Below, piece by piece: positions 10,937 to 47,994 of a stretch of 61,394 nt of DNA (position 1 is the first letter of the stretch; each line of letters begins with the position of its first letter). The position numbers and the translations under genes were made by a program. The notes beneath the pieces were generated by a model. It did no database searches. It was not told where the DNA came from and was given only the letters and a program-made list of their open reading frames with translations. This DNA comes from Candidatus Methanophagales archaeon (GTDB lineage Archaea > Halobacteriota > Syntropharchaeia > Alkanophagales > Methanospirareceae), in contig JANJFQ010000001.1 in the NCBI GenBank assembly GCA_025435355.1, positions 1-61,394 of the forward strand. Reading direction: 5' to 3'.

Positions 10937-12835
10937 CTAAGCCAGCCACCCGTGTACAAGCATAGCGATCAAATATAAAGCGAAAAAGAGAAGCACCAGC
11001 AGCACCCCAGTCCCTATGCTCATTCTTTCCATTGGTTCTTCTACTGGTCGCATCTTTACCTCCTCCAGATCTCGCTCGTAATGCTTATATACTGGTTGTA
11101 TTACCAGGTTGAAAACGAAAACAAAAGGTTTCAACAGCGCTACACCTATCATGTCCATCATCATTCTTGTTCCTCGCAGTGGATTCTTGCTGAACTTGAC
11201 GAAAAAATCCGCTATTCTCAATACTATTTTCTCTACGGCAATCGCAAAACTCACTAATGGGCTCTCGCATAGCCATATGAATCCTCTACCAGCTTTTCTA
11301 TACAGATAATCTACGTCATTCGTTATCTTCTCATGAGGCGCAAAGAACCCTATCATGAAGAACAGAAAAACAGTCATCAGCACCAACTCTACTGTTCCTA
11401 AAGTGTGCCCGAGTTCGTATGCATGGTAATGTAACGCCGCCTCCTTATAAGGCAGTATTCCATAAAGCAACTTTGGGTATAATCCGATAACAATGCAAAG
11501 GAAAGCGGTAACGCACATTGGAACAAGCATTGGTAACGGCGCCTCCTTCGCTTCTATATTCTCATTTTTACTGAAAAAAGCAAAATAGGTGAGTTTTAAG
11601 AATGATATGAGTGTGCCTACTGAACCCAACATCAAAGCTAATTCTAAAATCCCCATTCCTCGTACCCCGTTTAAAGCTGCCTCGTGTGCCGCGTGAATTA
11701 TCATACCCTTGCTCACATATCCATTAAAGCCTATAACGCCGGAGATGGAAAGCGCCGCTATCACGCACGTTATCATCGTTACGGGCATCTTCTTCGCCAG
11801 TCCTCCCAGTTCTGTGAGGTTGTTTTTTCCTGTTCTATATATCACTGCACCCATACACATGAACAGCGTTGTCTTGAACAACAGGTTGTTGAAAAGGTGT
11901 GCAATTGAACCGTTTATAGCTATCTCAGTTGCTACTCCGGCTGCCATTCCCACACCTGCTACCATATAGCCCAATTGACTCACAATGTGATAAGAAAGGA
12001 GTTTTCTCACATCGTTCTGTAATATCGCAAATATAACGCCGTAGAGACACATCGCTCCGCCCAGGTATGCTACCGCTTCTACACCCGAGAAGGTCCTCGC
12101 AAGCACGTATATACCCGTCTTCGTAGTGAATATGGACAAAAAAATGGTGCCTGCTATGGTTGCCTTCGGATACGAATCCGGCAGCCATGTATGCAGTGGA
12201 ATAAATGCTGCGTTTACTCCTATCCCTATAAGCAAAAGGAAATATCCTAGACCCGGCTTTACTGGTCCTACTGCGATAAGACCGGTGTTCATATAATGTA
12301 TTAGTATCCCGCCGAGAAGGGCACAACCACCAAACAGGTGAAACAGAATGTATCGCATTCCCGAATCTCTCGCTCTCCTCGAACCCTCGTACCATATCAA
12401 ACCAAGAGAAGAGAACGCCATCATCTCCCAGAATATGTACAGCGTGAAGAAATCTCCCGCGAATACCGCTCCCAACGCGCTTCCCATGTACAGCAACGCA
12501 CATATATGATGACCATTCTCTTTTACAGTAGATAGAGAATATATTATCGCCGACCCTCCCGCTATGGCAAATATATACCCCATTATAATGCTCAATCTAC
12601 CAAGATATCCACTCTCAACGTGTAAGAATGTCAGCTTCAATCCCGGCAGAACAGAAAATTCCCAGCCGGGTAGTGGTTGTCTTCCTATCAAAGCCACACT
12701 TATCAAACCAAGCGCTGCTAAAAGGATAAGGTAAACGTTCCTCACTCTACCTTTCCCAAAGAGAGGTATTAACACCGCACCAAAGATGAATATAAAAGCC
12801 GGTGGTATGTTCGGTACACTGCTTATATCAATCAT
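10937..12835 (-). CDS. antiporter-like subunit (PF00361-type, NuoL/M/N-MrpA/D superfamily), 'C/X-type' with C-terminal helix+TM tail
   Basis: 632-aa polytopic ORF. Motifs 'LHTWLPDSYPKATIAG', 'LLSYHIVSQLGYMVAG', 'GLAKKMP'. The tail is '...FSKNP...YERDLEEV...IGTGVLLVLLFFALYLIAMLVHGWLA'. Confidence 0.8.
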   Translation of the reverse strand: MIDISSVPNIPPAFIFIFGAVLIPLFGKGRVRNVYLILLAALGLISVALIGRQPLPGWEFSVLPGLKLTFLHVESGYLGRLSIIMGYIFAIAGGSAIIYSLSTVKENGHHICALLYMGSALGAVFAGDFFTLYIFWEMMAFSSLGLIWYEGSRRARDSGMRYILFHLFGGCALLGGILIHYMNTGLIAVGPVKPGLGYFLLLIGIGVNAAFIPLHTWLPDSYPKATIAGTIFLSIFTTKTGIYVLARTFSGVEAVAYLGGAMCLYGVIFAILQNDVRKLLSYHIVSQLGYMVAGVGMAAGVATEIAINGSIAHLFNNLLFKTTLFMCMGAVIYRTGKNNLTELGGLAKKMPVTMITCVIAALSISGVIGFNGYVSKGMIIHAAHEAALNGVRGMGILELALMLGSVGTLISFLKLTYFAFFSKNENIEAKEAPLPMLVPMCVTAFLCIVIGLYPKLLYGILPYKEAALHYHAYELGHTLGTVELVLMTVFLFFMIGFFAPHEKITNDVDYLYRKAGRGFIWLCESPLVSFAIAVEKIVLRIADFFVKFSKNPLRGTRMMMDMIGVALLKPFVFVFNLVIQPVYKHYERDLEEVKMRPVEEPMERMSIGTGVLLVLLFFALYLIAMLVHGWLA

Positions 12836-13022
12836 CCTGCTTTCCTTCCTTTTGTATCAAAGACAATATCTTCGCCATTACCATGAAAAGTCCAACTCCT
12901 ATCGCACCGTATAGAAAGCCTGTAAACTGCTCCGATTGTCTCAAAAACACAAATATTGCTGATATCCCTAATACCACACACACCATCATCAGTAGCAATC
13001 CTTTCAGCACCTTTTTATCCAT
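12828..13022 (-). CDS. small 2-TM membrane protein, translationally coupled to the downstream antiporter-like gene
   Basis: 64 aa with two hydrophobic helices. Its stop overlaps the start of 10937..12835 by 8 nt. A relic of its 3' end is retained at 15848..15877. Confidence 0.5.
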   Translation of the reverse strand: MDKKVLKGLLLMMVCVVLGISAIFVFLRQSEQFTGFLYGAIGVGLFMVMAKILSLIQKEGKQDD

Positions 13023-13186
13023 CTTTCTTCTCCATCATCCCCCCTTCCGATGGCTTCATTACAAATTTTATGGTGTATATAAATAAATATAAGTATTTCT
13101 TAATTTTTTCTTTCGGAAGATAAGATTTTTAGATTACAGAAGTATATCTTAACTGAACACATACCCTAAATAAAAAGAGAAAAGAG

Positions 13187-13612
13187 GTGAAAGAAGAAGC
13201 GATGGCGGCGGAATTATTATTAGAAGTTAGGGATGTAATGACCTATCCAGCTATCACTGAAGATGAAGACGCTTCGGTTGCTATAATATCGAAGGACATG
13301 AAATTGTCGAGAATAGGGAGTGTGGTCATAACAAAAGAAGATAAACCCGTAGGGATAATCACTGACCATGACATAGTGGTAAAAGTTATAATGAAGGATA
13401 GAAACCCAAGTAAGGTAAAAGCGGAAGAAATAATGTCCTCCCCTTTGGTGACCATCGAGGCAGATGCATCTCTTATGGGTGCATGCAAACTCTTGGCAGA
13501 GAAGGGCATAAGAAGACTACCTGTGACTGAGGATGATGCGCTCGTGGGCATCGTAAGTGTTAGAAATATACTGACAAGAGAGCCAGAGCATGTAAGAAAA
13601 TATTTATTTTAA
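13187..13612 (+). CDS. CBS-domain pair protein
   Basis: Two CBS repeats ('IGSVVITKEDKPVGIITDHDI', 'IRRLPVTEDDALVGIVSVRNIL'). Paralog of 21518..21910. Confidence 0.8.
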   Translation: MKEEAMAAELLLEVRDVMTYPAITEDEDASVAIISKDMKLSRIGSVVITKEDKPVGIITDHDIVVKVIMKDRNPSKVKAEEIMSSPLVTIEADASLMGACKLLAEKGIRRLPVTEDDALVGIVSVRNILTREPEHVRKYLF

Positions 13613-13713
13613 TCCCGAGGAATTTAGCAATAGGATTCGGTAAATCGTCCAGCAAAAATCAAAAGTTATTAATACTCTAAAACCTTATAAACATAAGGGG
13701 GTGATGTAAAAAA

Positions 13714-14022: not shown

Positions 14023-15855
14023 TTACAACCACAGCAGCCCATGCGTCAGATAAATAATCAGATAGAGCGTGAAAAACACGAGTGCCAGCAACACCCCTGT
14101 TCCTATCGCCACTCTCGGCACTTCTCCCGGATACACCTTCTTGAGCTCCTCCAAATCCCGCTCATATCGCATATACGCGGGATTGAAAGGTCTCATTACC
14201 ACTGCACCCACCATAGCCACCATTATTCTTGACGCCGCCGTTGGGTTCCTGCTGAACCATACGAAAGAATCAGCAATTCTAAGCAATCCTTTATCAATGA
14301 AATTCGCAACTGTCACTAATGGCTGCTCGCAGAACCATATAAACCCTCTCCCTGCCTTCCTGTATAGGTGGTCTATATCATACGTTATTCTTTCATGTGG
14401 TGTAAGTACGATTTTCATTATGAAGAACATAAATGCAGTCATTATCAACAATTCCAGCGTGCCTATCGTATGCCCAAGTGCGTATGGATGAAAATGAACA
14501 ACTTCATAAGGTAGTATTCCGTAAAGCAGCTTTGGATACACACCAATAGCAACGCAAAGGAAAGCAGTAACGCTCATTGCGATTAGCATGGGCAGCGGTG
14601 CTTCTTTCGCTTTTATTTCATCATTTCGCTTGAAAAACGTGAAATAAGTGAGTTTTAAGAAAGACAGGAAAGTGCCTACTGAACCCATTATCAAAGCAAG
14701 TGCAAGGATATGCATCCCGTCCAGTTCCGCAGCTTGAATCACCATACTTTTGCTTATGTATCCGTTAAAGCCCATAACGCCTGAAATAGAAAGAGCTGCT
14801 ATCACGCACGTTATCATCGTCACCGGCATCTTCTTCGCTAATCCACCAAGTTCTGTAAGGTTGTTCCTTCCTGTCGCATATATCACTGCACCCATACACA
14901 TAAACAGCAGTGCCTTATACAAAATATGGTTGAAAACGTGTGCGATTCCTCCGTTTATCCCTATATAAGTCCCTATCCCTATACCAGCAACCATGTAGCC
15001 TACCTGACTCACAATATGGTAAGAAAGGAGTTTCCTTACATCGTTTTGCATCAGTGCAAACACAACACCATAGAGGCACATCGCTCCGCCTATGTATGCT
15101 ACCGCCTCTACACCAGGAAAAGTCCTCGCAAGCACATATACGCCCGTCTTTGTCGTATATACAGACAAAAATACAGCTCCTGCTATCGTTGCTTTTGGAT
15201 ATGAATCCGGTAACCAGGTATGCAGTGGAATAAATGCCACGTTCACACCTATTCCGATAAGCATAAGGAGATATCCTAAAATACCTGCTTCATTTATATT
15301 TATAGACGCCACCAGTACAGAACCTGTGTTCATGTAATGTATCAGTATTCCACCAAGAAGGGCACAACCACCAAACAAGTGAAACAGGATATATCGCATC
15401 CCCGCGTTTGTCGCCCTCTCTGTCCGGCTGTACCAGATTAACCCGAGCGAAGAGAAAGCCATTATCTCCCAGAAGATGTACAAAGTGAAGAAATCGCCGG
15501 CAAATACCACACCAAGGGCGCTTCCTAAATATAGCAATCCACATACAAACTCGCCGCTCTCTTTCACTATATTTACTGAATATAATATCGCAGCACCGCC
15601 TATCAGAGCAAATATGTAGCCCATTATAAGGCTCAAACTATCGGCATGCAAGAACGTCAGCTCAAATCCGGGGAGAACTGTAAATCCCCATGTTGTCTGT
15701 GGTTTTATTAAAGCTACACTGATTAACCCAAGCGCAGCTAAGACGATAAGATAAATCTTCCTCCCCTTTCCCTTTCCGAGCAAGGGTATTAATGCAGCTC
15801 CTGCAAGGTAAATAAGAGCAGGAGGCACATTCGGTATGCTACTTATATCAATCAT
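14023..15855 (-). CDS. antiporter-like subunit (PF00361-type), 'C/X-type' with C-terminal helix+TM tail
   Basis: Close paralog of 10937..12835 ('MIDISSIPNVPPALI...', 'LHTWLPDSYPKATIAG'). The tail is 'FSRNPTAASRIMV...RPFNPAYMRYERDLEELKK...IGTGVLLALVFFTLYLIIYLTHGLLWL'. Confidence 0.8.
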   Translation of the reverse strand: MIDISSIPNVPPALIYLAGAALIPLLGKGKGRKIYLIVLAALGLISVALIKPQTTWGFTVLPGFELTFLHADSLSLIMGYIFALIGGAAILYSVNIVKESGEFVCGLLYLGSALGVVFAGDFFTLYIFWEIMAFSSLGLIWYSRTERATNAGMRYILFHLFGGCALLGGILIHYMNTGSVLVASININEAGILGYLLMLIGIGVNVAFIPLHTWLPDSYPKATIAGAVFLSVYTTKTGVYVLARTFPGVEAVAYIGGAMCLYGVVFALMQNDVRKLLSYHIVSQVGYMVAGIGIGTYIGINGGIAHVFNHILYKALLFMCMGAVIYATGRNNLTELGGLAKKMPVTMITCVIAALSISGVMGFNGYISKSMVIQAAELDGMHILALALIMGSVGTFLSFLKLTYFTFFKRNDEIKAKEAPLPMLIAMSVTAFLCVAIGVYPKLLYGILPYEVVHFHPYALGHTIGTLELLIMTAFMFFIMKIVLTPHERITYDIDHLYRKAGRGFIWFCEQPLVTVANFIDKGLLRIADSFVWFSRNPTAASRIMVAMVGAVVMRPFNPAYMRYERDLEELKKVYPGEVPRVAIGTGVLLALVFFTLYLIIYLTHGLLWL

Positions 15856-15904: not shown

Positions 15905-16171
15905 CTAAATCCACACGCCCATATATGTCCAAGAAATAACCAAATATGCCACAGCGAAAGCAAGCGAATAAAACAGCGCAGCCCCTATCGCTAAGGTTCG
16001 GGTATCTCCTATACATTCTTTTGACATTTCTAATCCCTTCGCATAGCCCATGCGAGCAGGACTAAACGGTCTCAGCACCGTCACACCCACTAAGTTTACC
16101 AGTATCTTCGTTGCAAGCGCCGGATTCTTCCCAAAACATCTCCACGAGCCCAAAATTTTTTTTATTCCCAT
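15905..16171 (-). CDS. free-standing homolog of the antiporter C-terminal tail (amphipathic segment + 1 TM)
   Basis: 88 aa. 'GKNPALATKILVNLVGVTVLRPFSPARMGY...LAIGAALFYSLAFAVAYLVISWTYMGVWI' aligns with the last ~90 aa of 14023..15855 and 16507..18315. Confidence 0.6.
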   Translation of the reverse strand: MGIKKILGSWRCFGKNPALATKILVNLVGVTVLRPFSPARMGYAKGLEMSKECIGDTRTLAIGAALFYSLAFAVAYLVISWTYMGVWI

Positions 16172-16275: not shown

Positions 16276-16397
16276 TATACACTATATGTAACATGAGTAT
16301 TAAAAAGGTTTTCGATTATGGCACGTCGTGCCACCGGTGCCACCCGTGTCACCAATGGCACAAAGATAAGAAAAACATTAGCGAGTTCCTATACTTG

Positions 16398-16506: not shown

Positions 16507-18315
16507 TTACGCCCATAGCACCCCGTACGTCAGATACATAAACAGGTATAGCGTGAAAAACATGATTACCAGCAGCACGCCTGTTCCAATCGCCACCCTG
16601 TGCACCTCTCCGGGATACAACCTCCTGAGCTCCTCTAAATCTTGCTCATATCGCATATACCCTGGATTAAATGGTTTCAAAAGCACCATGCTTGCCGTAA
16701 GCACCATTATTCGTGAGGCTACTGCCGGGTTCTTGCTGAACCAAACGAAGGAATCAGCAATTCTCAACAGGGTTTTGTCAATGGAATCCGCAAAATTTAA
16801 CAACGGTTTCTCGCAGAACCATATAAATTTCTTCCCCGCTATTCGATAGAACCAGTCGGTATCAAGCGTGATTGTTCGTTCCCCGCGAAGCATCCCTTTC
16901 AGCATCCAAAATGCTAAAAATGTAAACAGAAGTAGTTGACTCATTCCTATTACATGCGATGCGGTGTAAGGAGCATAATCAACTGCATAAGGAAGCATCT
17001 TGTAAAGGGCTTGTGGATACACGCCGATAAATACGCAAAGAAAAGCAGTAACACCCATCGCTGCGAGCATATTTTTAGGTGGCTCTCTTGCCTCAACGAC
17101 CGACTTCTTTCTCCCAAACCATGTAAGATATGGGAGTTTTAGACATGTGACGAGGAATGTTCCTATTGCAGCTCCTTCGAGCAACAACCATACAATGGGC
17201 AGATGTGCCGCCGCTTCCACAACCATTGTTTTACTCACAAATCCACTGAACAGAGGGAATCCGGAAATGGAGAAAGCGCCAATCATGTAAAGCCCGAAAG
17301 TGAGGGGCATGTATTTGTACATACCGCCCAATTCAGTGAACTTACTTCTCCCCGTCATCTCAAGCACTGCACCTGCACCCATGAATAGCAACGCCGTATA
17401 AAGAATGCAGCTTAAAGCATGTGCAGTTGAACCATTTATTGCCATCCCGATTCCTATTCCAACACCTGCTACCATGTATCCTCCCTGACCGATGATAGAA
17501 TAGGCGAGAAGTCTTCTTATATCATTCTCAAGCACAGCGAAAATAACTCCATACACTGCCATTATCGCTCCCAACCATATCAAAAGCTCAACACCCGGGA
17601 AACCCCGGATCAACACATATATCGCACTTTTTGTCGTGAACGCGGTCAAAAATACGGCTCCAGTAACCGTGGCTTCCGGGTAAGCATCAGACAACCAGGC
17701 ATGCAATGGAGGAACCGCGGCGTTTATAATAAAACCAACGAATATAAAGTAAGAGGACAAGTAACCCCAACCCGTTCCCCAACTAAAAGGGTTAAAAGCA
17801 ATGGAGCCTGTGTTTTGCATGTGTAAAATAATGCCTGCTAATAGGCATATACCACCAAAAATATGCACCATGATATATCGGAATCCCGCTTCAGAAGATG
17901 CCTTCGTCTTGCGATACCAGATAAGGAAAAGCGAAGAAAAAGCCATCACTTCCCAAAATAAGTACAGAGTAAAAAGGTCCCCTGCGAAAACTATTCCCAG
18001 TGCGCTTCCAACGTAGAGGAAGGCAGATATATGTTGCCCGTCCTCTTTTACATGCAGTGCATAAAGAGTGGCACAAAAAGCTACAATAACAAATATATAA
18101 CCGAAAACCAAACTCAATTGGTCAACCCTGCCAAAAACGAGCTCATATTCCAAAAGAGGAATACTCCAGAATACACCTTCCGACATATACAGAAGGTCTA
18201 TAAGCGCCGCTATCGGCAACAGAAGCAGATATATCTTTTTCCAGTTTCCTTTTAGGACCGGTATTAGAAGAGCGCCTAAGATAAATATAAGTCCCGGATG
18301 CAGCCACTCAATCAT
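16507..18315 (-). CDS. antiporter-like subunit (PF00361-type), 'C-type' with C-terminal helix+TM tail
   Basis: 'LHAWLSDAYPEATVTGAVF', 'LLAYSIIGQGGYMVAG', 'GGMYKYMP'. The tail is 'FSKNPAVASRIMV...KPFNPGYMRYEQDLEELRR...IGTGVLLVIMFFTLYLFMYLTYGVLWA'. The start is set at MIEWLHPGLIF by analogy with 36409..38229 (the ORF track starts at 18366). Confidence 0.8.
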   Translation of the reverse strand: MIEWLHPGLIFILGALLIPVLKGNWKKIYLLLLPIAALIDLLYMSEGVFWSIPLLEYELVFGRVDQLSLVFGYIFVIVAFCATLYALHVKEDGQHISAFLYVGSALGIVFAGDLFTLYLFWEVMAFSSLFLIWYRKTKASSEAGFRYIMVHIFGGICLLAGIILHMQNTGSIAFNPFSWGTGWGYLSSYFIFVGFIINAAVPPLHAWLSDAYPEATVTGAVFLTAFTTKSAIYVLIRGFPGVELLIWLGAIMAVYGVIFAVLENDIRRLLAYSIIGQGGYMVAGVGIGIGMAINGSTAHALSCILYTALLFMGAGAVLEMTGRSKFTELGGMYKYMPLTFGLYMIGAFSISGFPLFSGFVSKTMVVEAAAHLPIVWLLLEGAAIGTFLVTCLKLPYLTWFGRKKSVVEAREPPKNMLAAMGVTAFLCVFIGVYPQALYKMLPYAVDYAPYTASHVIGMSQLLLFTFLAFWMLKGMLRGERTITLDTDWFYRIAGKKFIWFCEKPLLNFADSIDKTLLRIADSFVWFSKNPAVASRIMVLTASMVLLKPFNPGYMRYEQDLEELRRLYPGEVHRVAIGTGVLLVIMFFTLYLFMYLTYGVLWA

Positions 18316-26087: not shown

Positions 26088-26097
26088 CTTTGTCTCT

Positions 26098-29214: not shown

Positions 29215-29275
29215 GCTGAAAACTGCAAGAAATTTCTCTTGCTTTTTGCGTTACACCCCAGCTCGAAATGGCGAA

Positions 29276-41756: not shown

Positions 41757-43298
41757 TTACGGAATCACGTTTCCTACCGCTAGTTCCACAAGCTTATAGA
41801 AATACATAGAGATTATGTCCAACCTCAGAATGAAATCAAGGAAAAATATAACCGAGAAAATTGCCGTTATAGATAACGGAACGAGCATAAACAAGGGTGC
41901 CTCTTTTATCTCTTCTCCCACGCCTTCTGGTTTCTTGAAGAATGCAGTATGTATGATAGGGAAGAAATAAACGACATCCAGAAAAGAAGCTATTAAGAGA
42001 ATAAATAAAAAGGCTATCTCTTCTGCCTGTAGTGCACCCTGGCAAAGGAACCATTTACTTATGAATCCACATGCCGGCGGAATTCCGCACATCCCAAATG
42101 CGGTTATGGTGAATGCGAGCATCGTTACCGGCATCGTCTTCCCTACTCCGCTCATCTCACTTATGTTCTTCTTCCCTGTCGCTACCATTATCGCACCCGC
42201 GCAGAGGAACAGCGTTATCTTCATGAATCCATGGAAGGGGATGTGAATCATCGCTCCTCGTATCCCTTCCGTAGTTAACAATCCCGCACCTAAGAGTATA
42301 TACGATAGCTGGTTTATCGTGGAGTATGCAAGTCTTCTTTTCAAGTTGTCCTGCGCGATGGCAAACAAATTGGCTACGATCATTGTAAAACCCGCTATAC
42401 AGGCAAGCGCCAACCCAAGGTCAAGATGTTCGCCCACCAAATATACTTTGCCCATTAAATCCACGCCATAGATATAGCATACAATCCTGACGATTCCAAA
42501 TACGCCCGCCTTCACCACCGCTACTGCGTGTAAAAGCGCACTTACCGGCGTGGGTGCGATCATTGCAGTGGGAAGCCACGAGTGAAATGGCATCCACGCC
42601 GCTTTCAGGAACCCCAACAAGAAACAGAAGAACAGAATCGCCAGTGTCACTGAAGATACAGAACCGGCATCAAAACCTTCTTTTAGTATACCGCCATTCG
42701 TAAAATCGGTGGTCCCCGTAAGATAATAAGTCATCATCACCGCGAACAGGAAGAAAACGCCAGAGGTAAGCAGATAAGCGAAATATTTACGACCCGCACT
42801 CAAAGCTTCTGGTGACTGGTCGTGAATAACCAACGGATACGTTGAGACCGTTAATATCTCATAAAATATAAACAACGTGAGCAGATTTGCTGATAGCGCT
42901 ATGCCTATGGCACCGAATATGGCGATAGCAAAGCAGAAATAGTATCTTGTCTGCGCATGCTCCTTCAAAGACCTCATGTACCCTATGGAATAGAACGATA
43001 CGAGAATCCACAAAAAGGATGCAGTGAGAGCGAAAATAAGACCAAAAGCATCCACTTTAAACCCAAATGCAATTCCCTCGAACATCGTCTGGAAGAACGT
43101 GCATTCTATGACTTTCCTTTCCAAAATAATCGGCACCATGGATGCAACGAGCGAGAACTGCAGTATGCCAGCGATAATCGTCCAGCTCTCTCTTACGTTC
43201 GACCGCTTGCTGGACAACAATATGAGAATCGCAGCAGTGGCAGGGCATAGAATTGCTAACAAAGGTCTGTAACTGTAAACTATTGATTCCTCTATCAT
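41757..43298 (-). CDS. Mrp antiporter large subunit, B-type (MrpA N-terminal/NuoL-like or second MrpD)
   Basis: 'VDAFGLIFALTASFLWILVSFYSIGYM', 'FYEILTVSTYPLV', 'FHSWLPTAMIAPTPVSALLHAVAVVKAG'. It is the last gene of the mrp operon. Confidence 0.8.
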   Translation of the reverse strand: MIEESIVYSYRPLLAILCPATAAILILLSSKRSNVRESWTIIAGILQFSLVASMVPIILERKVIECTFFQTMFEGIAFGFKVDAFGLIFALTASFLWILVSFYSIGYMRSLKEHAQTRYYFCFAIAIFGAIGIALSANLLTLFIFYEILTVSTYPLVIHDQSPEALSAGRKYFAYLLTSGVFFLFAVMMTYYLTGTTDFTNGGILKEGFDAGSVSSVTLAILFFCFLLGFLKAAWMPFHSWLPTAMIAPTPVSALLHAVAVVKAGVFGIVRIVCYIYGVDLMGKVYLVGEHLDLGLALACIAGFTMIVANLFAIAQDNLKRRLAYSTINQLSYILLGAGLLTTEGIRGAMIHIPFHGFMKITLFLCAGAIMVATGKKNISEMSGVGKTMPVTMLAFTITAFGMCGIPPACGFISKWFLCQGALQAEEIAFLFILLIASFLDVVYFFPIIHTAFFKKPEGVGEEIKEAPLFMLVPLSITAIFSVIFFLDFILRLDIISMYFYKLVELAVGNVIP

Positions 43299-44821
43299 GG
43301 CGCTGCTACCACCCCCGTGCCCAACAATGCATTCACTGCATGGTCAACTACCGGTAGTAAAGGTGTCTCCGTACCCGCAAGCCAGAGGATACCAACGATA
43401 ATGCAGAGAGAACCGAGAATTAATGCGGGAAGAACCATGCTCATCGGTGCTTCATCTTTTCTTATCTCTTTTTCTTCCTCTCCTTCACCCTTCACAAAAT
43501 ACATGCGCTCTATAACTCGCCAGAAATAAACGAGGTTGAGAAGCGTGCTGGCAAGTATAACGGCTACAAAGGCATATTCCACAGCTTCTAAAGACGCAGC
43601 CAGCAAGCACAATTTCGTTATAAATCCCACGCTTGGCGGCACCCCTATCATTGATAACGCCGCTATCGTGAAAGCAGCGCAGGTATACGGCATCTTCTTC
43701 CCCAACCCCACGAAATCGTGTATGTTCCACAAACCATAACGGTATATTATGGCACCGGCAACCAGGAACAAGCATCCTTTTGTTAGCGCATGATTCAATA
43801 TATGCATCAACGCACCGTATAGACCCCACTGAGTAGAATAGAGTCCCACGCCAAGCACGATATAGCCTACCTGTGCGACACTGGAGTAAGCAAGCATTCT
43901 CTTCAAATTAGACTGCATTATTGCAATAATCGAGCCCACGATAATGGCTATCGCGGCTATCCAGGAAATGGCAGTGGCGATAGGCACGTAAATCCGGATG
44001 AATTCCGTGGTGAAGACAGAGAAAAAGACCCTTATGAAAGCATAAATGGAAACCTTTGACATCGCCGCGGCTATTATCACGGTAACCGCGGAAGGAGCAT
44101 ACGTATATGCGTCGGGTTGCCATATATGGAGTGGGAAGAGCGCCATTTTTATGCTCATTCCAACAACGAAGAAGACAAAAGCCGCTTGCACTACTTTATT
44201 CTCATACAGTGGTGGCAACAGGTGCGAAAGGTCCGCCATGTTAAGCGAGCCTGTTACGGCATACAGAAAACCAGCACCAAGAAGGTAGAAGCAAGCACCT
44301 ATGGAGCCCATAATTACGTAGTTATAGCTCGCTTTCAACGCTCTCCTTCCTGCAACGGCTATTAACGCATACGCCGCTAAAGAGGCTATCTCCAGGAATA
44401 CATACAGGTTGAATATATCCCCGGTTACCGTTATACCGCATAAACCGGTGATAAGAAGTTGAAAGACCACGTAGAACGGCACGATCCTGTGTGGCTGCTC
44501 GCGCTCTATACTCCTCTTTGCATATATTGCCGTTAACAGGCAGATGAATAGAACTATAACCAACACGTACGCGTTGAATGCGTCTATAACGTATTCTATG
44601 CCCCATGGAGGTGCCCATCCACCCAGCCTGTAATGTATCGTGCCACGAGTGATGACCTGGTTTAAAATGAAAAGAGCCATAAATAGCTGCACGGAAATGG
44701 TTGCGATGGAAATAGGCAAACAAGTCTTCTTATTCCACCGTCCTGCAATCAAAATAGTAAATGCAGAAAGCATGGATATTACAATGACAAGCACCGGAAA
44801 ATGTTCAGTTACAATCAACAT
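43295..44821 (-). CDS. mrpD: Mrp antiporter subunit D
   Basis: 'YRLGGWAPPWGIEYVIDAFNA', 'TGDIFNLYVFLEIASLAAYALIA', 'LHIWQPDAYTYAPSAVT', 'LAYSSVAQVGYI'. Confidence 0.8.
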   Translation of the reverse strand: MLIVTEHFPVLVIVISMLSAFTILIAGRWNKKTCLPISIATISVQLFMALFILNQVITRGTIHYRLGGWAPPWGIEYVIDAFNAYVLVIVLFICLLTAIYAKRSIEREQPHRIVPFYVVFQLLITGLCGITVTGDIFNLYVFLEIASLAAYALIAVAGRRALKASYNYVIMGSIGACFYLLGAGFLYAVTGSLNMADLSHLLPPLYENKVVQAAFVFFVVGMSIKMALFPLHIWQPDAYTYAPSAVTVIIAAAMSKVSIYAFIRVFFSVFTTEFIRIYVPIATAISWIAAIAIIVGSIIAIMQSNLKRMLAYSSVAQVGYIVLGVGLYSTQWGLYGALMHILNHALTKGCLFLVAGAIIYRYGLWNIHDFVGLGKKMPYTCAAFTIAALSMIGVPPSVGFITKLCLLAASLEAVEYAFVAVILASTLLNLVYFWRVIERMYFVKGEGEEEKEIRKDEAPMSMVLPALILGSLCIIVGILWLAGTETPLLPVVDHAVNALLGTGVVAAP

Positions 44822-44954: not shown

Positions 44955-45344
44955 TCACAGCCCCATCTCTCTCTCCTTCTCTATTATCTCCTCTTCTTCC
45001 ATCGTCCCGTATTCCTCATACATTCTTATTACCAGCGCGAGGGCAACCGCAGTCGTGGCAACCGCTACCACTATCGCCGTCAGGATAAGCACGTGAGGTA
45101 ACGGATTCACGTAAACGTAACCCATATGTATTATTTCTTCGCTTACAATTGGCTCGGTTCCTCCTCTTATATCAGCCAGCGAAATGAAGAATAAGAATAT
45201 AGCGGTTTGAAATATGTTCAATCCGATGATTTTCTTTATCAGATTGCCCTTTGCTATCATCGCATAGAAACCGATGAGCATAAGCACAATGGAAACCCAG
45301 TAATTATATTTCGCAAATACTTCCCCGATTAGCCATTCCATCAT
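44955..45344 (-). CDS. mrpC: Mrp antiporter subunit C (NuoK-like)
   Basis: 'NYWVSIVLMLIGFYAMIAKGNLIKKIIGLNIFQTAIFLFFISLA'. The start is set at the internal MM (ORF track 45398) to clear the upstream stop. Confidence 0.75.
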   Translation of the reverse strand: MMEWLIGEVFAKYNYWVSIVLMLIGFYAMIAKGNLIKKIIGLNIFQTAIFLFFISLADIRGGTEPIVSEEIIHMGYVYVNPLPHVLILTAIVVAVATTAVALALVIRMYEEYGTMEEEEIIEKEREMGL

Positions 45345-45346
45345 TT

Positions 45347-45847
45347 CTATTCCTGTTCCTCCTTTTCTCCTACCTCTTCTTCGCTTTCTCTTTTCCACAC
45401 GAGGTTAAAAAATATAGAGGTAATTACAGCCATTACGGTTATCCCGATTCCTATTTCTACGAGGTCCATTCCTAAAGCGCGGTTCTCCTCAAAATGGGTT
45501 GTTAATGGAATGAAACCATAGTTTAAATACTGCGCAGCTCCAAAACTGAGGATTACGCACAGGAGTCCAACCCCCGCAAAGATATACACACCAACACTGA
45601 AAAGGTTGGTATTTACAGCCTCCGGGAATCTGTCCCCGGCATCAACGATACCAAAAGCAATAACGAGTAAGATAAAAGAAGCGGCGAATATAACTCCGCC
45701 TTGAAATCCTCCCCCGGGTCCGCCTGCTCCATGAATTATCACATACAATGCAAACAACTGGATAAAAGGTACCATCAGTCTCGATACTGTCTCTACTATG
45801 ACATCTCCACCTTTGCCTTCTCCTGTCGCACTATTTTCCGTGTTCAA
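45347..45847 (-). CDS. mrpB: Mrp antiporter subunit B (MnhB domain)
   Basis: 'HGAGGPGGGFQGGVIFAASFIL' is the MnhB signature. Confidence 0.8.
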   Translation of the reverse strand: MNTENSATGEGKGGDVIVETVSRLMVPFIQLFALYVIIHGAGGPGGGFQGGVIFAASFILLVIAFGIVDAGDRFPEAVNTNLFSVGVYIFAGVGLLCVILSFGAAQYLNYGFIPLTTHFEENRALGMDLVEIGIGITVMAVITSIFFNLVWKRESEEEVGEKEEQE

Positions 45848-45948: not shown

Positions 45949-45950
45949 AC

Positions 45951-46514
45951 CTATTCCGGTCTTTTCTCTCGCCTCCGCAATAATAATAATACTCCCACAC
46001 CCGCGGTAAATATAACGGTGACCTCACCAAGCGTATCGTAACCTCTGTAATCAGCGAGGATATAAGTTACCATATTCGGCACTTCTGTCTCATGGTGCCC
46101 TTCCTCTATATACCGTATGATAGGTGCATACCGGTAGACATCCAGCGTATCCCCCTCTCTCTTAATAAAGTAATACTTGGAGCGTTTCTGCTCGAGCTCT
46201 GGAAGGTCTTGATAATACTTCTCCGGTGGAATAACATATGCATCCCATTCGCCTTCTGTTACCGTTTCAACACTCGAAGGTAGTTCGTCTTTCCGGAAAC
46301 CTATGGCTTCAAGTTCACTCACCAACGCCTCAGGAACAATACCCTGATTCAAATCGTCCACTAACTCATCGGCATCCATGCTGATATCCAACTTCACATA
46401 TCTATTAGGAGGGGAATAGGGGTCTCCAAATGCGGGTATATCTTCAGCCACGTATATGAAAAGAGCGCCTAAAAAAATTACGGAAACAAGAGCCATTGCC
46501 GATATTAATTTCAT
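45951..46514 (-). CDS. MbhE-like / MrpB N-terminal-like subunit with a long hydrophilic insertion
   Basis: TM1 is 'MKLISAMALVSVIFLGALFIYV'. The C-terminal 'NMVTYILADYRGYDTLGEVTVIF' is the MbhE/MnhB-N motif. The start is at the internal Met and overlaps the upstream stop by 4 nt (ORF track 46658). Confidence 0.65.
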   Translation of the reverse strand: MKLISAMALVSVIFLGALFIYVAEDIPAFGDPYSPPNRYVKLDISMDADELVDDLNQGIVPEALVSELEAIGFRKDELPSSVETVTEGEWDAYVIPPEKYYQDLPELEQKRSKYYFIKREGDTLDVYRYAPIIRYIEEGHHETEVPNMVTYILADYRGYDTLGEVTVIFTAGVGVLLLLRRREKRPE

Positions 46515-46756
46515 TTCTTCTCCCACCTCGCCGTCCTGGACAAAGCAGCGATTAAGAATGCGGTGGTTGCACCGGCGCCGACGGCAGCTTCTGTAAATGC
46601 CACATCCACCGAATGCATCTGCACCCAGACCACAGCCATCAGAAAACTGTAAGCACACAACAGCATAATCGCACTCAATAAGTCTCTCACGGTTATTGCA
46701 GCTATTGCGATTGCCACAATTAAAAATAACACAATGAGGTCAAGCTGCCATATCAT
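46511..46756 (-). CDS. MbhD-like (DUF4040; MrpA C-terminal-like) subunit
   Basis: 'AIAAITVRDLLSAIMLLCAYSFLMAVVWVQMHSVDVAFTEAAVGAG'. Confidence 0.7.
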   Translation of the reverse strand: MIWQLDLIVLFLIVAIAIAAITVRDLLSAIMLLCAYSFLMAVVWVQMHSVDVAFTEAAVGAGATTAFLIAALSRTARWEKK

Positions 46757-46878
46757 TTTTTTATTTATCTCCTACTTCTGCTGTTCATATTTAAAATATA
46801 TTATATAAAACTGTCGCTTTTTACCCGTAACTTTAACTTTTGCGCTTTTCATTTTTCATTGCCGCCGTCAGGCGATTA

Positions 46879-47385
46879 TCACCCTTCCATATACACATCA
46901 GCTACTTTCTTTTGCATCGTCTTATCCACTAAGAGCGCGTCAGCGGGTTTTTTCGCGATTGCATGCACCCAAAACTTACCTTTTTCACGGTCTACCAATA
47001 TGGTTATCGTTCCGGGGGTTAAGGTGATGGAATTAGCTAAGGTAACGAGAGCGAAATCGCTTCGCACGGAAGTTTCAAATTCTATTATTCGAGGGTCTAT
47101 CGGCATCTTCGGATGGAGAACTCGATATGCAACGTCGAAGTTTGCCAGTAATATCTGCCACAATTCCCAACCGAGGTAAATAACGAATCTAAAGGACTTC
47201 AAAAGCATCTTCTCGCCTTTTCCCTTTACCAGCAGGTCATGAGAAATCAACGCCACAATCGCACTGCATATTATACCGGCTGTGAGATGGAAGGTGTCGA
47301 AGTGTCCGGATAAGAGAAGCCAGAACAAGAACAGGGCACAAAACGTTACGAGTATTCCAAAAGCTTTTCCTGATTTAGCGGTCAT
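46879..47385 (-). CDS. mrpE: Mrp antiporter subunit E
   Basis: 'FWLLLSGHF', 'VLHPKMPIDPRII', 'LANSITLTPGTI'. Confidence 0.8.
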   Translation of the reverse strand: MTAKSGKAFGILVTFCALFLFWLLLSGHFDTFHLTAGIICSAIVALISHDLLVKGKGEKMLLKSFRFVIYLGWELWQILLANFDVAYRVLHPKMPIDPRIIEFETSVRSDFALVTLANSITLTPGTITILVDREKGKFWVHAIAKKPADALLVDKTMQKKVADVYMEG

Positions 47386-47404
47386 CTACTCTTCTTCCTC
47401 CTCT

Positions 47405-47737
47405 TCACATCCTTGCATCCCCTTTCTTCCAGGGCTTTACGCCTGTATTATAAGCAGCTTTCATTATCGCATGTGTCGCCGTTGGATTGGCGAGGAAAAT
47501 GAATATTATTAAAAATAGAAGTTTCACAGGTACGAGAGGTGTTTCAGGATAATGAAATAAATGGTATAACAACAAACCAGCGATTATAAGGACTTCTCCA
47601 AGCGTGTCGCACTTACCGGTTGCATGCAGTCTCGTGTAAAAGTCAGGCAATCTCAGTAATCCAACTACGCCGGTGAACATAAAGAAAATTCCAGCAGCTA
47701 GGAATATCATTACGATTATCTCGATTATTTCGACCAT
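47405..47737 (-). CDS. mrpG: Mrp antiporter subunit G
   Basis: 'GVVGLLRLPDFYTRLHATGKCDTLG'. Confidence 0.8.
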   Translation of the reverse strand: MVEIIEIIVMIFLAAGIFFMFTGVVGLLRLPDFYTRLHATGKCDTLGEVLIIAGLLLYHLFHYPETPLVPVKLLFLIIFIFLANPTATHAIMKAAYNTGVKPWKKGDARM

Positions 47738-47994
47738 ACTTCACCCCTCTCCAAATATTTCGCGAAGGCTAAAGTGCCTATGAAATTCAGCACTGCATAG
47801 AGAAGCGAGATGTCAAAGAACAGAGGTCTTTCGAAATAATAGCCTATGATAACTAAAAGAACGATTGTTTTTGTCCCTATTACGTTCACCGCCGTCACGC
47901 GATTAAATACGCCGGGTCCAAGCGCTGCTCGGTATAAACTCAACAATATCGTGAGTGCAATTAACAGCCCGATTGCTAAAAATACTTCTATCAT
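47725..47994 (-). CDS. mrpF: Mrp antiporter subunit F
   Basis: 89 aa, 3 TM. 'LYRAALGPGVFNRVTAVNVIGTKTIVLL' is MnhF-like. Confidence 0.75.
   Translation of the reverse strand: MIEVFLAIGLLIALTILLSLYRAALGPGVFNRVTAVNVIGTKTIVLLVIIGYYFERPLFFDISLLYAVLNFIGTLAFAKYLERGEVWSK

What the first reader, a model, noticed from the sequence alone, without database searches (positions are those of the whole stretch)
10937..47994. Twelve antiporter-like (NuoL/M/N-MrpA/D type) genes in 37 kb: one canonical Mrp operon plus iterated accessory modules, with no redox module
Twelve ORFs carry the PF00361-type signature (H-x-WLP ... LAY-x-x-x-SQ-x-GY ... K-x-MP). They start at 10937, 14023, 16507, 23996, 26098, 27612, 34916, 36409, 38518, 40067, 41757 and 43295. 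By sequence they fall into four types: A (MrpD-like, 3 copies), B (MrpA-N/NuoL-like, 3), C/X (5) and D (NuoM-like, 1). Only 43295 and 41757 sit in a recognisable Mrp operon (mrpF-G-E, MbhD-like, MbhE-like, mrpB, mrpC, D, D/A). That operon ends in a T8 tract. The other ten form modules with their own promoters: A-B-small-C (29147->23996), A-B-small-C-D (41608->34916), tail-small-C (18894->16507), tail-X (16171->14023) and small-X (13022->10937). No NuoB/C/D/I-like, [NiFe]-hydrogenase, Fpo/F420, formate dehydrogenase or DabA-like ORF is present anywhere in the window. These are therefore not the membrane arm of an obvious known complex. The modules co-occur with several gene families I cannot assign. 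An extended multi-subunit ion-translocating array, or several alternative arrays that plug into the Mrp core, is my inference.
Basis: partly seen in the sequence, partly recalled or inferred. Interest (0 to 1): 0.85.

Follow-up and report, generated by a model that had tools for sequence, protein, structure and literature searches.

The report
Multiplied Mrp antiporter modules in ANME-1
A methane-oxidising archaeon (ANME-1 group) encodes one core of an Mrp-type sodium/proton exchanger but twelve copies of its ion-channel subunits, arranged as repeated cassettes; these probably build versions of the exchanger with different ion ratios, though this has not been shown.

Summary
Twelve minus-strand ORFs at the stated coordinates are PF00361 proteins.

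The interpretation needs correcting. "A-B-small-C", extended by D or by small-X, is not an accessory module. It is the normal 3' half of a widespread but uncharacterised Mrp operon: MrpE/F/G, MbhD, MbhE, MrpB, MrpC, A, B, small, C, then optionally D or X. This operon occurs in many anaerobic bacteria and archaea. [quoted passage not shown]

What is unusual here, and conserved across ANME-1 contigs, is the following:
- The antiporter-like half is present in three sets, plus extra terminal C/X subunits, against a single Mrp core in the window.
- A conserved palindromic operator and TATA box lie upstream of two of the sets (A2, A3) and of the tail1-X1 unit.
- Three paralog lineages have fixed replacements of the TM7 lysine: A2 has Met, A3 has Glu and D has Asn.
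- Free-standing "tail" proteins correspond to the lateral-helix anchor of C/X.

My best reading is interchangeable or additive pump cassettes on one Mrp core. The paralogs are too divergent to be an assembly artefact. I rate it a new variant of a known kind.

The parts
47725..47994 (-). MrpF (core)
   Evidence: PF04066, E=4.5e-20
47405..47737 (-). MrpG (core)
   Evidence: PF03334, E=3.1e-27
46879..47385 (-). MrpE (core)
   Evidence: PF01899, E=1.1e-38
46511..46756 (-). MbhD-like piece of the MrpA C-terminal domain (core)
   Evidence: PF13244, E=9.4e-18
45951..46658 (-). MbhE-like protein (core). The true start is probably near 46514, just after the MbhD stop.
   Evidence: PF20501, E=2.3e-9. 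Orthologues are 181-187 aa in L005 and L009.
45347..45847 (-). MrpB/MnhB (core)
   Evidence: PF04039, E=1.9e-24
44955..45398 (-). MrpC/NuoK-like (core)
   Evidence: PF00420, E=1.1e-22
43295..44821 (-). A1, MrpD-like antiporter-like subunit. TM7 Lys is retained. It has its own TATA-like box in the 133-bp gap after MrpC.
   Evidence: PF00361, 5.5e-62. It is the A paralog most similar to the Methanothrix (56%) and ANME-2 Methanocomedens (51%) A subunits and to the A subunits of the bacterial 4-subunit operons L086/L087 (59-60%). 83-95% orthologues are widespread in ANME-1.
41757..43298 (-). B1, MrpA-N/NuoL-like core subunit without a lateral helix. It is followed by TAATTTTTTTTG.
   Evidence: PF00361 2.4e-62 and PF00662 7.3e-6; gap sequence
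41708..41723 (-). Palindromic operator-like site TGCCACCGGTGTCTCG, upstream of a TATA box and of A2
   Evidence: 6 matches in the window against 0.03 expected. Conserved upstream of A2/A3 orthologues in L005, L008 and L012.
40067..41608 (-). A2, divergent MrpD-like subunit. The TM7 Lys is replaced by Met.
   Evidence: PF00361. Met is present in all 4 orthologues.
38518..40074 (-). B2
   Evidence: PF00361, 2.3e-59
38278..38514 (-). small2, a 78-aa protein with two TM helices (motif ...GHHWLQKEEDYY). It is a conserved partner of B and C.
   Evidence: Homologues lie between B and C in nearly every locus, including S. meliloti, where it is annotated 'hypothetical protein'.
36409..38229 (-). C2, terminal-type subunit of family NF009310. 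Its C-terminal helix region is divergent and shorter.
   Evidence: NF009310, 687 bits against a cutoff of 564; alignment
34916..36412 (-). D, NuoM-like subunit. The TM7 Lys is replaced by Asn.
   Evidence: PF00361 2e-57; TIGR01972 245 bits, below the cutoff of 263.8. Asn is present in all 118 family members aligned, bacterial ones included. D follows C in the bacterial operons L086 and L087.
34594..34860 (-). tail3, an 88-aa protein with an amphipathic N-terminal part and one TM helix. A hairpin and T-run follow it.
   Evidence: Conserved after D in L005-L009. Only weak similarity to tail2 (E=0.005).
29198..29215 (-). Operator-like palindrome GTGTCACCGGTGTCC, upstream of a TATA box and of A3
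27612..29147 (-). A3, MrpD-like subunit. The TM7 Lys is replaced by Glu.
   Evidence: PF00361, 1.2e-62. Glu is present in all 5 orthologues.
26098..27615 (-). B3
   Evidence: PF00361 2.3e-59; PF00662 2.1e-5
25857..26105 (-). small3
23996..25864 (-). C3. The true start is at MIEWFHPG, which gives 622 aa.
   Evidence: NF009310, 693 bits. The 99% homologue P0001 is 622 aa.
21138..21386 (-). Fourth tail-type gene, of the tail3 type
   Evidence: tblastn: 67% to the L003 82-aa protein, which is 47% identical to tail3
18619..18894 (-). tail2, a free-standing copy of the last ~80 aa of C/X (end of the lateral helix plus the TM anchor)
   Evidence: blastp against the C-termini of X1, C4 and X2: E=1.7e-19, 5.9e-19 and 1.3e-14. 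Only 15 representative clusters were found in 1.84 billion proteins; 14 of them are 59-158 aa and one weak hit is 982 aa.
18308..18538 (-). small4
16507..18315 (-). C4. The modelled structure has a 14-TM core, TM15-16, about 80 aa of lateral helix and a terminal TM helix.
   Evidence: NF009310, 694 bits. AlphaFold pLDDT 86, pTM 0.81. Top Foldseek hits are MrpA, NdhF and NuoL.
16327..16360 (-). Cluster of operator-like sites upstream of tail1
15905..16171 (-). tail1, a free-standing copy of the C/X C-terminus
   Evidence: blastp against X1, E=1.4e-16
14023..15855 (-). X1, terminal-type subunit of the X clade
   Evidence: NF009310, 659 bits; tree
12828..13022 (-). small5, a diverged small subunit. 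Its gene overlaps the X2 start by 8 nt.
   Evidence: Its orthologue precedes X in L003, in L011 and in the Desulfobacterales operons.
10937..12835 (-). X2, terminal-type subunit of the X clade
   Evidence: NF009310, 595 bits. The X clade groups with the second terminal subunit of the Desulfobacterales operons.

Best explanation
The window comes from an ANME-1 (Methanophagales) archaeon. It encodes one membrane core of an Mrp-type (CPA3) cation/proton antiporter. The core has the split-MrpA layout: MrpF, G, E, MbhD-like, MbhE-like, MrpB, MrpC.

It also encodes three paralogous sets of the antiporter-like subunits (APLS) that normally complete this kind of operon:
- Set 1: A1-B1. In other ANME-1 genomes this pair lies beside the small-C4, small-X and tail genes.
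- Set 2: A2-B2-small-C2-D-tail3.
- Set 3: A3-B3-small-C3.

In each set A is the MrpD equivalent and sits next to the core. B is a second pump subunit. C or X is the terminal subunit. Its long C-terminal lateral helix and final TM anchor clamp the row together, as NuoL does in complex I and MrpA does in Mrp. D is a fourth, NuoM-like subunit. The tail proteins are free-standing copies of the clamp.

I infer that the sets are interchangeable or additive distal cassettes that dock on the single core. This would give antiporter isoforms with two to four ion channels and different coupling chemistry (TM7 Lys, Met, Glu or Asn), and hence different H+/Na+ ratios or ion preferences.

The likely role is converting proton-motive force into sodium-motive force and back. 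Reverse methanogenesis needs this because Mtr consumes a Na+ gradient (established knowledge of Mtr, not tested here).

Shown: gene content, homology, operon architecture in relatives, conservation, the predicted fold of C, and the conserved promoter element. Inferred: physical assembly on one core, isoform switching, the ions transported and the physiological role.
For: - All Mrp subunit families are present once, against 3 A, 3 B, 5 C/X and 1 D.
- The same gene order (core, A, B, small, C) forms one tight operon in Desulfobacterales, Dehalococcoidia, Nitrospirota, Ignavibacteria, Methanothrix, Geoglobus and ANME-2. Variants add D or small-X. No conserved redox genes lie beside these operons.
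- C/X proteins reach the curated NCBIfam model NF009310, 'Na+/H+ antiporter subunit D'.
- The C4 model has a NuoL/MrpA-like lateral helix of about 80 residues plus a terminal TM helix. Its best structural matches are MrpA 6z16_A and 7qru_A.
- tail1 and tail2 are homologous to the C/X C-terminus. In L003 and L006 a 140-aa stand-alone C-terminal piece follows A3-B3 in place of a full C.
- The TM5 Glu and TM12 Lys are present in all 12 paralogs. The TM7 Lys replacements are fixed in every orthologue: A2 Met 4/4, A3 Glu 5/5, D Asn in all 118 aligned family members including the window copy. This indicates selection, not decay.
- A conserved operator and TATA box lie upstream of A2 and A3 here and in L005, L008 and L012.
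- The arrangement is conserved on independent ANME-1 contigs.
Against: - No experiment exists on any member of this 3-4-subunit Mrp type, so the ions and the direction of transport are assumed from the family.
- I could not count Mrp core genes in a whole ANME-1 genome, so a second core elsewhere is not excluded.
- In Desulfobacterales C and X are co-transcribed in one operon. This argues for additive rather than alternative use of the terminal subunits. How two helix-bearing subunits would pack together is unknown.
- The B-small-C trio does serve a redox complex in rhizobia.
- In some ANME-1 relatives (L008, L016) a true NuoL-type gene replaces B-small. Docking to a redox complex encoded elsewhere therefore remains possible.
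Confidence: 0.5

Rival explanations
1. The sets that lack a core of their own (A1-B1 with C4/X, and A3-B3-small-C3) are distal membrane-arm modules of a redox-driven complex encoded elsewhere in the genome. Candidates are the ANME-1 F420H2:quinone oxidoreductase (Fqo) or another complex-I-like enzyme. They would replace or extend its L subunit, as B-small-C replaces NuoL in rhizobial green complex I.
For: - S. meliloti pSymA has nuoJ-nuoK-[B]-[small]-[C]-nuoM-nuoN-nuoA-G. This replacement is described in the literature.
- The complex-I copies of C form a clade nested inside the Mrp C tree.
- In L008 and L016 the position of B-small is taken by a 700-aa NuoL-type protein (TIGR01974 467 bits, above the cutoff of 407.5), followed by D.
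- D is NuoM-like.
Against: - No NuoA/H/J/B/C/D/I or Fpo/Fqo gene lies in the window or in any ANME-1 locus fetched.
- In the closest relatives set 2 is directly downstream of the Mrp core.
- The main ANME comparative-genomics paper never mentions Mrp or an antiporter, so it gives no sign of a link between Fqo and such modules.
Confidence: 0.2
2. Each set works on its own as a core-less transporter. An A-B-C row, or even single C/X subunits with their small partner, would move ions without MrpE/F/G/B/C.
For: - The Ito et al. review reports antiport activity for M. acetivorans MrpA alone and for an MrpA/MrpD subcomplex.
- A Syntrophobacterales genome keeps only small plus C with a B fragment.
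- The pairs tail1-X1 and small5-X2 are isolated transcription units.
Against: - In every bacterial and non-ANME-1 archaeal locus the APLS genes are fused into one operon with the core, or with nuo genes.
- The lateral helix and anchor of C/X only make sense as a clamp across neighbouring subunits.
- The Syntrophobacterales copy looks like a decaying transfer remnant.
Confidence: 0.15
3. All twelve antiporter-like subunits assemble into one giant linear array on the Mrp core.
For: - All the genes lie within 37 kb on one strand.
- Bacterial operons show that at least four APLS can be encoded for one complex.
Against: - The predicted lateral helix of C4 has about 80 helical residues. From my own knowledge of NuoL, that should span about two neighbouring subunits, not eleven.
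- Five subunits are of the terminal type.
- The transcription units have different promoters.
- Set content varies between ANME-1 genomes: C3 is reduced to a 140-aa piece, B-small is replaced by NuoL, and A1-B1 sits elsewhere.
Confidence: 0.07
4. The repeats are an assembly artefact or decaying pseudogenes.
For: It is a repeat-rich region in a metagenome-derived contig.
Against: - Paralogs are at most 81% identical in protein and at most 91% in DNA over 300 nt.
- All the ORFs are intact and carry the conserved catalytic residues.
- Each paralog has 74-95% orthologues on independent contigs from other samples, in the same order.
Confidence: 0.02

Closest known systems
Group 3 Mrp antiporters with irregular gene order and duplicated mrpD, for example Aphanothece halophytica Ah-Mrp (mrpCD1D2EFGAB). 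Described in Ito, Morino & Krulwich 2017 (PMC5703873).
   Same: CPA3 family. MrpA is split into small pieces. There is more than one MrpD-like subunit in one cluster. There is no redox module. Ah-Mrp has shown Na+/H+ antiport.
   Different: Here, and in the widespread operon found, there are three to four large subunits. These include a distinct terminal subunit (NF009310) with a lateral helix and a conserved 2-TM small partner. In ANME-1 the large-subunit half is multiplied against one core. None of these has been characterised.
Canonical Mrp complexes with solved structures (Anoxybacillus flavithermus 6Z16, Bacillus pseudofirmus 7QRU, Dietzia 7D3U)
   Same: The same subunit families are present. 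The C4 model matches MrpA best by fold. C2 has MrpA (6z16_A) as its best sequence hit in the PDB.
   Different: Canonical Mrp has two APLS (MrpA-N and MrpD), and MrpA carries both the helix and the C-terminal domain. Here those parts are separate genes and there are three or four APLS per set.
'Green' complex I of rhizobia (S. meliloti pSymA nuo2), in which two MrpD-like subunits replace NuoL. Described by Degli Esposti & Martinez-Romero 2016 and Chadwick et al. 2018, as cited in PMC9040806.
   Same: The same B-small-C trio, at 45-59% identity. C corresponds to 'MrpD2' with the C-terminal amphipathic helix.
   Different: There the trio sits between nuoJK and nuoMN of an NADH dehydrogenase. Here it follows Mrp core genes or stands alone, with no nuo genes.
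Cyanobacterial NDH-1 isoforms (NDH-1L, NDH-1MS and others), built from alternative NdhD/NdhF paralogs on a common core (own knowledge)
   Same: This is a precedent for paralogous antiporter-like subunit pairs being swapped on one core to give functionally different complexes.
   Different: NDH-1 is redox-driven and uses Cup proteins. No such partners are present here. This is an analogy of logic only, not of membership.
MBH/MBS respiratory complexes of Thermococcales (6CFW, 6U8Y)
   Same: They share the MbhD/MbhE/MrpB/MrpC/MrpE-G type module. From my own knowledge, a small separate subunit (MbhI) carries the lateral helix, as the tail proteins would.
   Different: MBH and MBS carry a hydrogenase or sulfane reductase module and have one or two APLS.
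2M complex I and 'Ca. Manganitrophus' Complex_I_3, which has five pumping subunits (PMC9040806)
   Same: Extra pump subunits are added to a complex-I-type membrane row, with matching changes in the lateral helix.
   Different: Those are single redox complexes with one extra or two extra subunits. They are not multiplied cassettes beside an antiporter core.

Membership tests
PF00361 antiporter-like subunits (NuoL/M/N, MrpA/D) | Significant match to the PF00361 profile above the gathering score | tested here: met
   All 12 score 135-212 bits against a cutoff of 21.5.
PF00361 antiporter-like subunits (NuoL/M/N, MrpA/D) | Conserved charged residues of the ion path: TM5 Glu, TM7 Lys, TM12 Lys/Glu | tested here: inconclusive
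   The TM5 Glu and TM12 Lys are present in 12/12. The TM7 Lys is present in 9/12 and is replaced by Met (A2), Glu (A3) and Asn (D). These replacements are fixed in the orthologues.
Mrp (CPA3) multisubunit cation/proton antiporter | Full set of subunit families MrpA(N and C parts), B, C, D, E, F, G encoded together | tested here: met
   PF04066, PF03334, PF01899, PF13244, PF20501, PF04039, PF00420 and PF00361 are all found at 47994-41757.
Mrp (CPA3) multisubunit cation/proton antiporter | No attached redox or catalytic module | tested here: met
   No such Pfam family is present in the window. There are no conserved redox neighbours in 20 related operons.
Mrp (CPA3) multisubunit cation/proton antiporter | Na+(K+)/H+ antiport activity | not testable with these tools
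   Needs expression in an antiporter-deficient host or proteoliposomes.
NCBIfam NF009310 'Na(+)/H(+) antiporter subunit D' (C/X type) | Whole-protein score above the curated cutoff of 564 bits | tested here: met
   Scores are 594.8, 658.8, 694.1, 692.8 and 687.4 bits for the five C/X proteins.
NuoL/MrpA-type terminal subunit | C-terminal extension with a long lateral amphipathic helix ending in a TM anchor | tested here: met
   In the AlphaFold model of C4, helices 487-528, 530-546 and 553-566 are followed by TM helix 576-596. pLDDT is 62-73 in this part. Foldseek aligns the full length to MrpA, NdhF and NuoL. This is a prediction only.
Complex I / Fpo / group 4 hydrogenase membrane arm | Adjacent NuoH-type and NuoB/NuoD-type (Q-module or hydrogenase) genes | tested here: not met
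   Absent from the window and from all ANME-1 loci fetched. Present only in the rhizobial-type loci.
Green complex I distal module | B - small - C gene trio | tested here: met
   There are two complete trios (38518/38278/36409 and 26098/25857/23996). The small-C pair 18308/16507 has no adjacent B. Identity to the rhizobial trio is 45-59%.
Green complex I distal module | Trio embedded between nuoJ/K and nuoM/N | tested here: not met
   The window has no nuoJ/K/M/N in that arrangement. Instead, A-type genes lie upstream, and D or nothing lies downstream.
DAB (DabA/DabB) CO2 uptake | DabA (PF10070) gene next to the PF00361 gene | tested here: not met
   No such Pfam hit among the window ORFs scanned.

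The most novel reading that the evidence does not exclude
ANME-1 archaea run a 'gearbox' Mrp. One antiporter core accepts several interchangeable pump cassettes with two, three or four channels. Some cassettes have the TM7 lysine changed to Met, Glu or Asn. Free-standing lateral-helix clamps hold them in place. The cassettes are switched by a shared operator. In this way the cell would tune the H+/Na+ exchange ratio to the very small energy yield of anaerobic methane oxidation.
Probability: 0.3. Interest if true: 0.85.

Novelty: new variant of a known kind. Interest (0 to 1): 0.6.

Why it matters
Complex-I-type machines are thought to be built from reusable pump modules, but natural cases where modules are swapped on one core are few.

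This locus, and its conserved relatives across ANME-1, offers several things:
- Three diverged cassettes, with natural variants of the key TM7 lysine.
- The lateral-helix clamp encoded as a separate gene.
- Clear bacterial counterparts with three or four pump subunits, some in cultivable organisms (Methanothrix, Geoglobus, Desulfobacterales) that could be purified.

It also points to an overlooked part of ANME-1 bioenergetics. The main comparative-genomics paper on ANME never mentions Mrp or an antiporter. Yet reverse methanogenesis needs a sodium gradient for Mtr.

Finally, it suggests where the NuoL replacement of rhizobial green complex I came from. It appears to derive from this Mrp type, although that rests on a single rough NJ tree without support values.

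Tried and rejected
**Literature**
- Searches for ANME-1 with Mrp, MrpD or antiporter-like terms found nothing describing this array.
- Chadwick et al. 2018 (ISME J) is not held. I used it only through papers that cite it.

**Look-ups that gave nothing**
- The exact-sequence look-up of B2 was not on record, probably because the start codon was called differently.
- The look-up of X1 gave only a 3-kb contig.
- There are no tRNA genes and no Rfam families in the window.
- tblastn found no homologues in the window of the EarA regulators or the histidine kinase/response regulator that flank the cluster in L003 and L089. The factor that binds the operator is therefore unknown.

**Structure**
- AlphaFold of the unk312 family gave pLDDT 64 from a 3-sequence alignment. 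That is too poor for a fold search, so I did not run one.
- No solved structure contains a B-small-C arrangement.

**Readings rejected**
- DAB or Cup-type CO2 uptake: no DabA or Cup gene is present, and the carbonic anhydrase at 1-558 is about 10 kb from the nearest of these genes (X2, 10937) and unrelated.
- A hydrogenase, Fpo or FDH arm: no such genes are present.
- 'unk203' as part of the operon: it is a shadow ORF of the TYW3 gene on the other strand.
- Assembly duplication.

**Other**
- The operator motif is absent upstream of the A1 orthologues in L088 and L089. It is therefore not common to all sets.

Full report
**1. Observation**

Each matches PF00361 with E-values between 3e-39 and 1e-62.
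- A: 43295, 27612, 40067 (47-67% identity).
- B: 41757, 26098, 38518 (64-74%, with weak NuoL-type N-terminal PF00662 hits).
- C/X: 23996, 36409, 16507, 14023, 10937 (45-81%, 602-632 aa after start correction).
- D: 34916.
Identity between groups is 24-33%.

The Mrp core genes are confirmed by Pfam: MrpF, MrpG, MrpE, MbhD, MbhE, MnhB and NuoK-like MrpC, at 47994-44955.

Small 64-82-aa membrane proteins precede four of the C/X genes. "Tail" proteins of 88-91 aa lie at 15905, 18619 and 34594. A fourth tail-type gene is at 21138-21386.

Pfam scans of the ORFs that look like genes across the window found no complex-I Q-module, hydrogenase, Fpo, FDH or DabA family. The flanks are ordinary archaeal housekeeping genes with PGF-CTERM and McrC-like markers.

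DNA identity between paralogous blocks is at most 91% over 300 nt, and mostly 60-87%. Assembly duplication is therefore excluded.

**2. Organism**

Homologues of C, D and A1 at 75-99% identity are annotated as ANME-1 or Methanophagales. The nearest genome loci are Methanophagales MAGs. The window is a whole 61,394-bp NCBI contig.

**3. What the modules are**

I scanned one genome per species with the C/X alignment. I then mapped every ORF of the 80 loci against the window's proteins. A single operon architecture recurs in Desulfobacterales, Desulfatiglandales, Dehalococcoidia, Nitrospirota, Ignavibacteria, Methanothrix, Geoglobus, Ferroglobus and ANME-2 (Methanocomedens). It is MrpE/F/G, MbhD/E, MrpB, MrpC, A, B, small, C.
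- In some Desulfobacterales it continues with small-X.
- In other Desulfobacterales and in Nitrospinota it continues with D, as one tightly packed operon.
- No redox genes are conserved beside these operons.

A-B-small-C(-D or -small-X) is therefore the standard large-subunit half of a widespread Mrp variant with three or four antiporter-like subunits. This variant resembles what the Mrp literature calls group 3. I found no experimental work on this particular type.

The five C/X proteins exceed the curated cutoff of NCBIfam NF009310, "Na(+)/H(+) antiporter subunit D".

A second context appears in rhizobia, Aromatoleum, Acidobacteriota and others: B-small-C-NuoM-NuoN. The annotated S. meliloti pSymA record shows nuoJ, nuoK, B, a hypothetical small protein, C, nuoM, nuoN and nuoA-G. 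This is the "green" complex I, in which two MrpD-like subunits replace NuoL and the second carries the amphipathic helix HL. In a neighbour-joining tree these complex-I copies nest inside the Mrp C clade. The tree is rough and has no support values.

**4. Architecture of C/X and the tails**

An AlphaFold model of C4 (pLDDT 86, pTM 0.81) shows:
- the 14-TM core,
- two further TM helices,
- about 80 residues of consecutive helix (487-566),
- a terminal TM helix (576-596).

The helix region has pLDDT 62-73. Foldseek ranks MrpA (6z16_A, 7qru_A), NdhF and NuoL first, with full-length alignments. C/X is therefore the terminal, clamp-bearing subunit. From my own knowledge of NuoL, a helix of this length should span about two neighbouring subunits, which here would be B and A.

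tail1 and tail2 are homologous to the last ~80 residues of C/X (E=1e-16 to 1e-19). In L003 and L006 a stand-alone 140-aa copy of the C3 C-terminus follows A3-B3 where the full C3 gene would be. Free-standing clamps therefore exist. From my own knowledge, MbhI plays this role in MBH.

The tail2 family is rare. Only 15 representative clusters were found in 1.84 billion proteins; 14 of them are 59-158 aa and one weak hit is 982 aa.

**5. What is special in ANME-1**

*Multiplication against one core.*
- In the closest relatives (L005, L009) the Mrp core is followed directly by the orthologues of A2-B2-small-C2-D-tail3. This is then followed by GvpD-like ATPase, GH38, the unk331 gene and A3, exactly as in the window but without A1-B1.
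- A1-B1 is nevertheless widely conserved in ANME-1 at 83-95%.
- On other contigs A1-B1 lies away from any core, convergent with the C4, small-X and tail cluster.
- A1 is the A paralog most like the Methanothrix and ANME-2 (Methanocomedens) A subunits and the A subunits of the bacterial 4-subunit operons L086/L087.
- ANME-1 therefore carries three sets. Set 1 is A1-B1 with C4 and X types, resembling the Desulfobacterales A-B-small-C-small-X operon. Set 2 resembles the bacterial A-B-small-C-D operon. Set 3 is A3-B3-small-C3.
- Core genes were seen only once, next to set 2, or next to A1-B1 in this window.

*Plastic set content.* Content varies between genomes. C3 is reduced to its clamp in L003 and L006. 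B-small is replaced by a 700-aa true NuoL-type protein plus D and tail in L008 and L016.

*Fixed residue changes.*
- All twelve proteins keep the TM5 Glu and the TM12 Lys.
- The TM7 Lys is Met in A2 and its 4 orthologues.
- It is Glu in A3 and its 5 orthologues.
- It is Asn in D and in all 118 aligned family members, bacterial ones included.
- A1, all B and all C/X keep Lys.
From my own knowledge, the TM7 Lys is essential in NuoL/M/N and MrpA/D. These are therefore functional divergences under selection, not decay.

*Regulation.*
- Within each set the genes overlap or are less than 60 bp apart. Gaps of 133 bp and 148 bp precede A1 and A2. B1 ends in TAATTTTTTTTG.
- Upstream of A2 and A3 lies a near-identical element, TG(Y)CACCGGTGTC...GAGAAAAAG.GATA.CTTTATATAT. 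Related sites lie upstream of tail1.
- The 16-nt pattern occurs 6 times in the window against 0.03 expected.
- The same element precedes the A2/A3 orthologues in L005, L008 and L012. It does not precede the A1 orthologues.
- Even where set 2 follows the core directly, it therefore has its own regulated promoter.

**6. Mechanism proposed**

*Shown.* One Mrp core. Three diverged sets of large subunits with separate promoters. Terminal subunits with a predicted lateral-helix clamp. Free-standing clamp proteins. Fixed TM7 variants.

*Inferred.* The sets dock on the single core as alternative or additive cassettes. This would give antiporters with two to four channels and different H+/cation ratios or ion preferences. 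The likely use is to interconvert proton and sodium gradients. ANME must drive Mtr in reverse with a Na+ gradient while Fqo-type complexes pump protons (established methanogen bioenergetics, not tested here).

The co-transcription of C and X in Desulfobacterales argues that at least some combinations are additive.

Confidence is 0.5. The rivals are:
- docking to a redox complex encoded elsewhere (0.2),
- autonomous core-less transporters (0.15),
- one giant array (0.07),
- artefact (0.02).

**7. Comparison with what is known, and novelty**

This is an Mrp-type system by gene content. It is closest to group 3 Mrp and shares its B-small-C trio with green complex I. It is not a hydrogenase, Fpo or complex-I arm by the test of adjacent Q-module genes.

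The 3-4-subunit operon type is annotated in databases. Its distal trio has been discussed for complex I. That part is therefore known.

I found no description of the following, and the main ANME comparative-genomics paper never mentions Mrp or an antiporter:
- the ANME-1 multiplication of cassettes against one core,
- the conserved TM7 replacements,
- the stand-alone clamps,
- the shared operator.

I rate it a new variant of a known kind, with interest 0.6.

Noticed in passing
window 19125-20063 (+), 20129-21088 (+), 29354-30349 (+): Three paralogous membrane proteins of unknown family (48-54% identity). Each is an internal duplication of a ~155-aa unit with about four TM helices. There is no Pfam hit beyond a weak DUF7555 match. 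They are transcribed divergently from tail2 and from A3, with homologous intergenic DNA. They are conserved beside the modules in ANME-1 loci L003, L005, L006, L008, L012 and L016; two unannotated 315-317-aa genes in the same position in L088 may also be members (not compared). The AlphaFold model is too poor (pLDDT 64) to classify the fold.
   Followed up: partly
window 22407-23795 (-) and 33151-34554 (-): Two GvpD/KaiC-like P-loop ATPases, each immediately downstream of a module (after C3 and after tail3). The same position is conserved in L005-L009 and L016. Their role is unknown; regulation or assembly is possible.
   Followed up: no
window 13187-13612 (+), 21518-21910 (+), 13714-13959 (+); also L003, L088, L089, L085: CBS-pair proteins and a GYD-domain protein recur next to these clusters in ANME-1. 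A CBS protein also sits beside the green complex I genes of S. meliloti and of several Acidobacteriota loci.
   Followed up: no
L002 (Syntrophobacterales CP070774.1, locus 9333-11854); P0022, P0038, P0041, P0187, P0188, P0205: Inter-domain similarity is very high. C3 is 77-78% identical to proteins of Syntrophobacterales and Syntrophaceae. D is 63-67% identical to proteins of Desulfobacterales, Nitrospirota and Nitrospinota. The Syntrophobacterales genome keeps only a B fragment (134 aa, 82% to B3), small and C, which looks like a remnant of a transfer from an ANME-1-like archaeon. In the NJ tree it nests inside the ANME-1 C2/C3 clade.
   Followed up: partly
window 48011-48622 (-) versus 48111-48683 (+): The 203-aa ORF just upstream of mrpF is a shadow ORF. 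The real gene is a TYW3 methyltransferase on the plus strand (PF02676, 6.6e-45), divergent from mrpF.
   Followed up: yes
window 2073-2351 and 2293-2910 (-): An aldehyde:ferredoxin oxidoreductase gene is split into two overlapping ORFs (AFOR_C positions 300-385 and 110-302) and lacks its N-terminal domain. It is a frameshifted pseudogene or a sequencing error.
   Followed up: no
window 16507-18315 (C4) and 10937-12835 (X2): The TM11 motif HxxxHxxxK is typical of NuoL/MrpA and is present in C2, C3 and X1. In C4 it is HxxxCxxxT and in X2 it is HxxxNxxxK. I did not check whether these changes are conserved in orthologues.
   Followed up: no
L008 5895-7997 and L016 9723-11834: In two related archaeal MAGs the B-small position of set 3 is occupied by a 700-aa NuoL-type protein (TIGR01974, 467 bits), followed by D, tail and a split C3. 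This shows that cassettes exchange parts with complex-I-type genes.
   Followed up: partly
window 34594-34860 and 21138-21386 (-): The tail3-type proteins carry conserved cysteines (KCFxxCP...CP) in the part that aligns with the 'RCLSKNPA' segment of tail1, tail2 and C/X. This may be a metal or disulfide site. It is unexplained.
   Followed up: no
window 1-558 (+) and 3103-3675 (+): A beta-carbonic anhydrase and a rhodanese both carry PGF-CTERM archaeal surface-anchor signals. They are unrelated to the finding.
   Followed up: no
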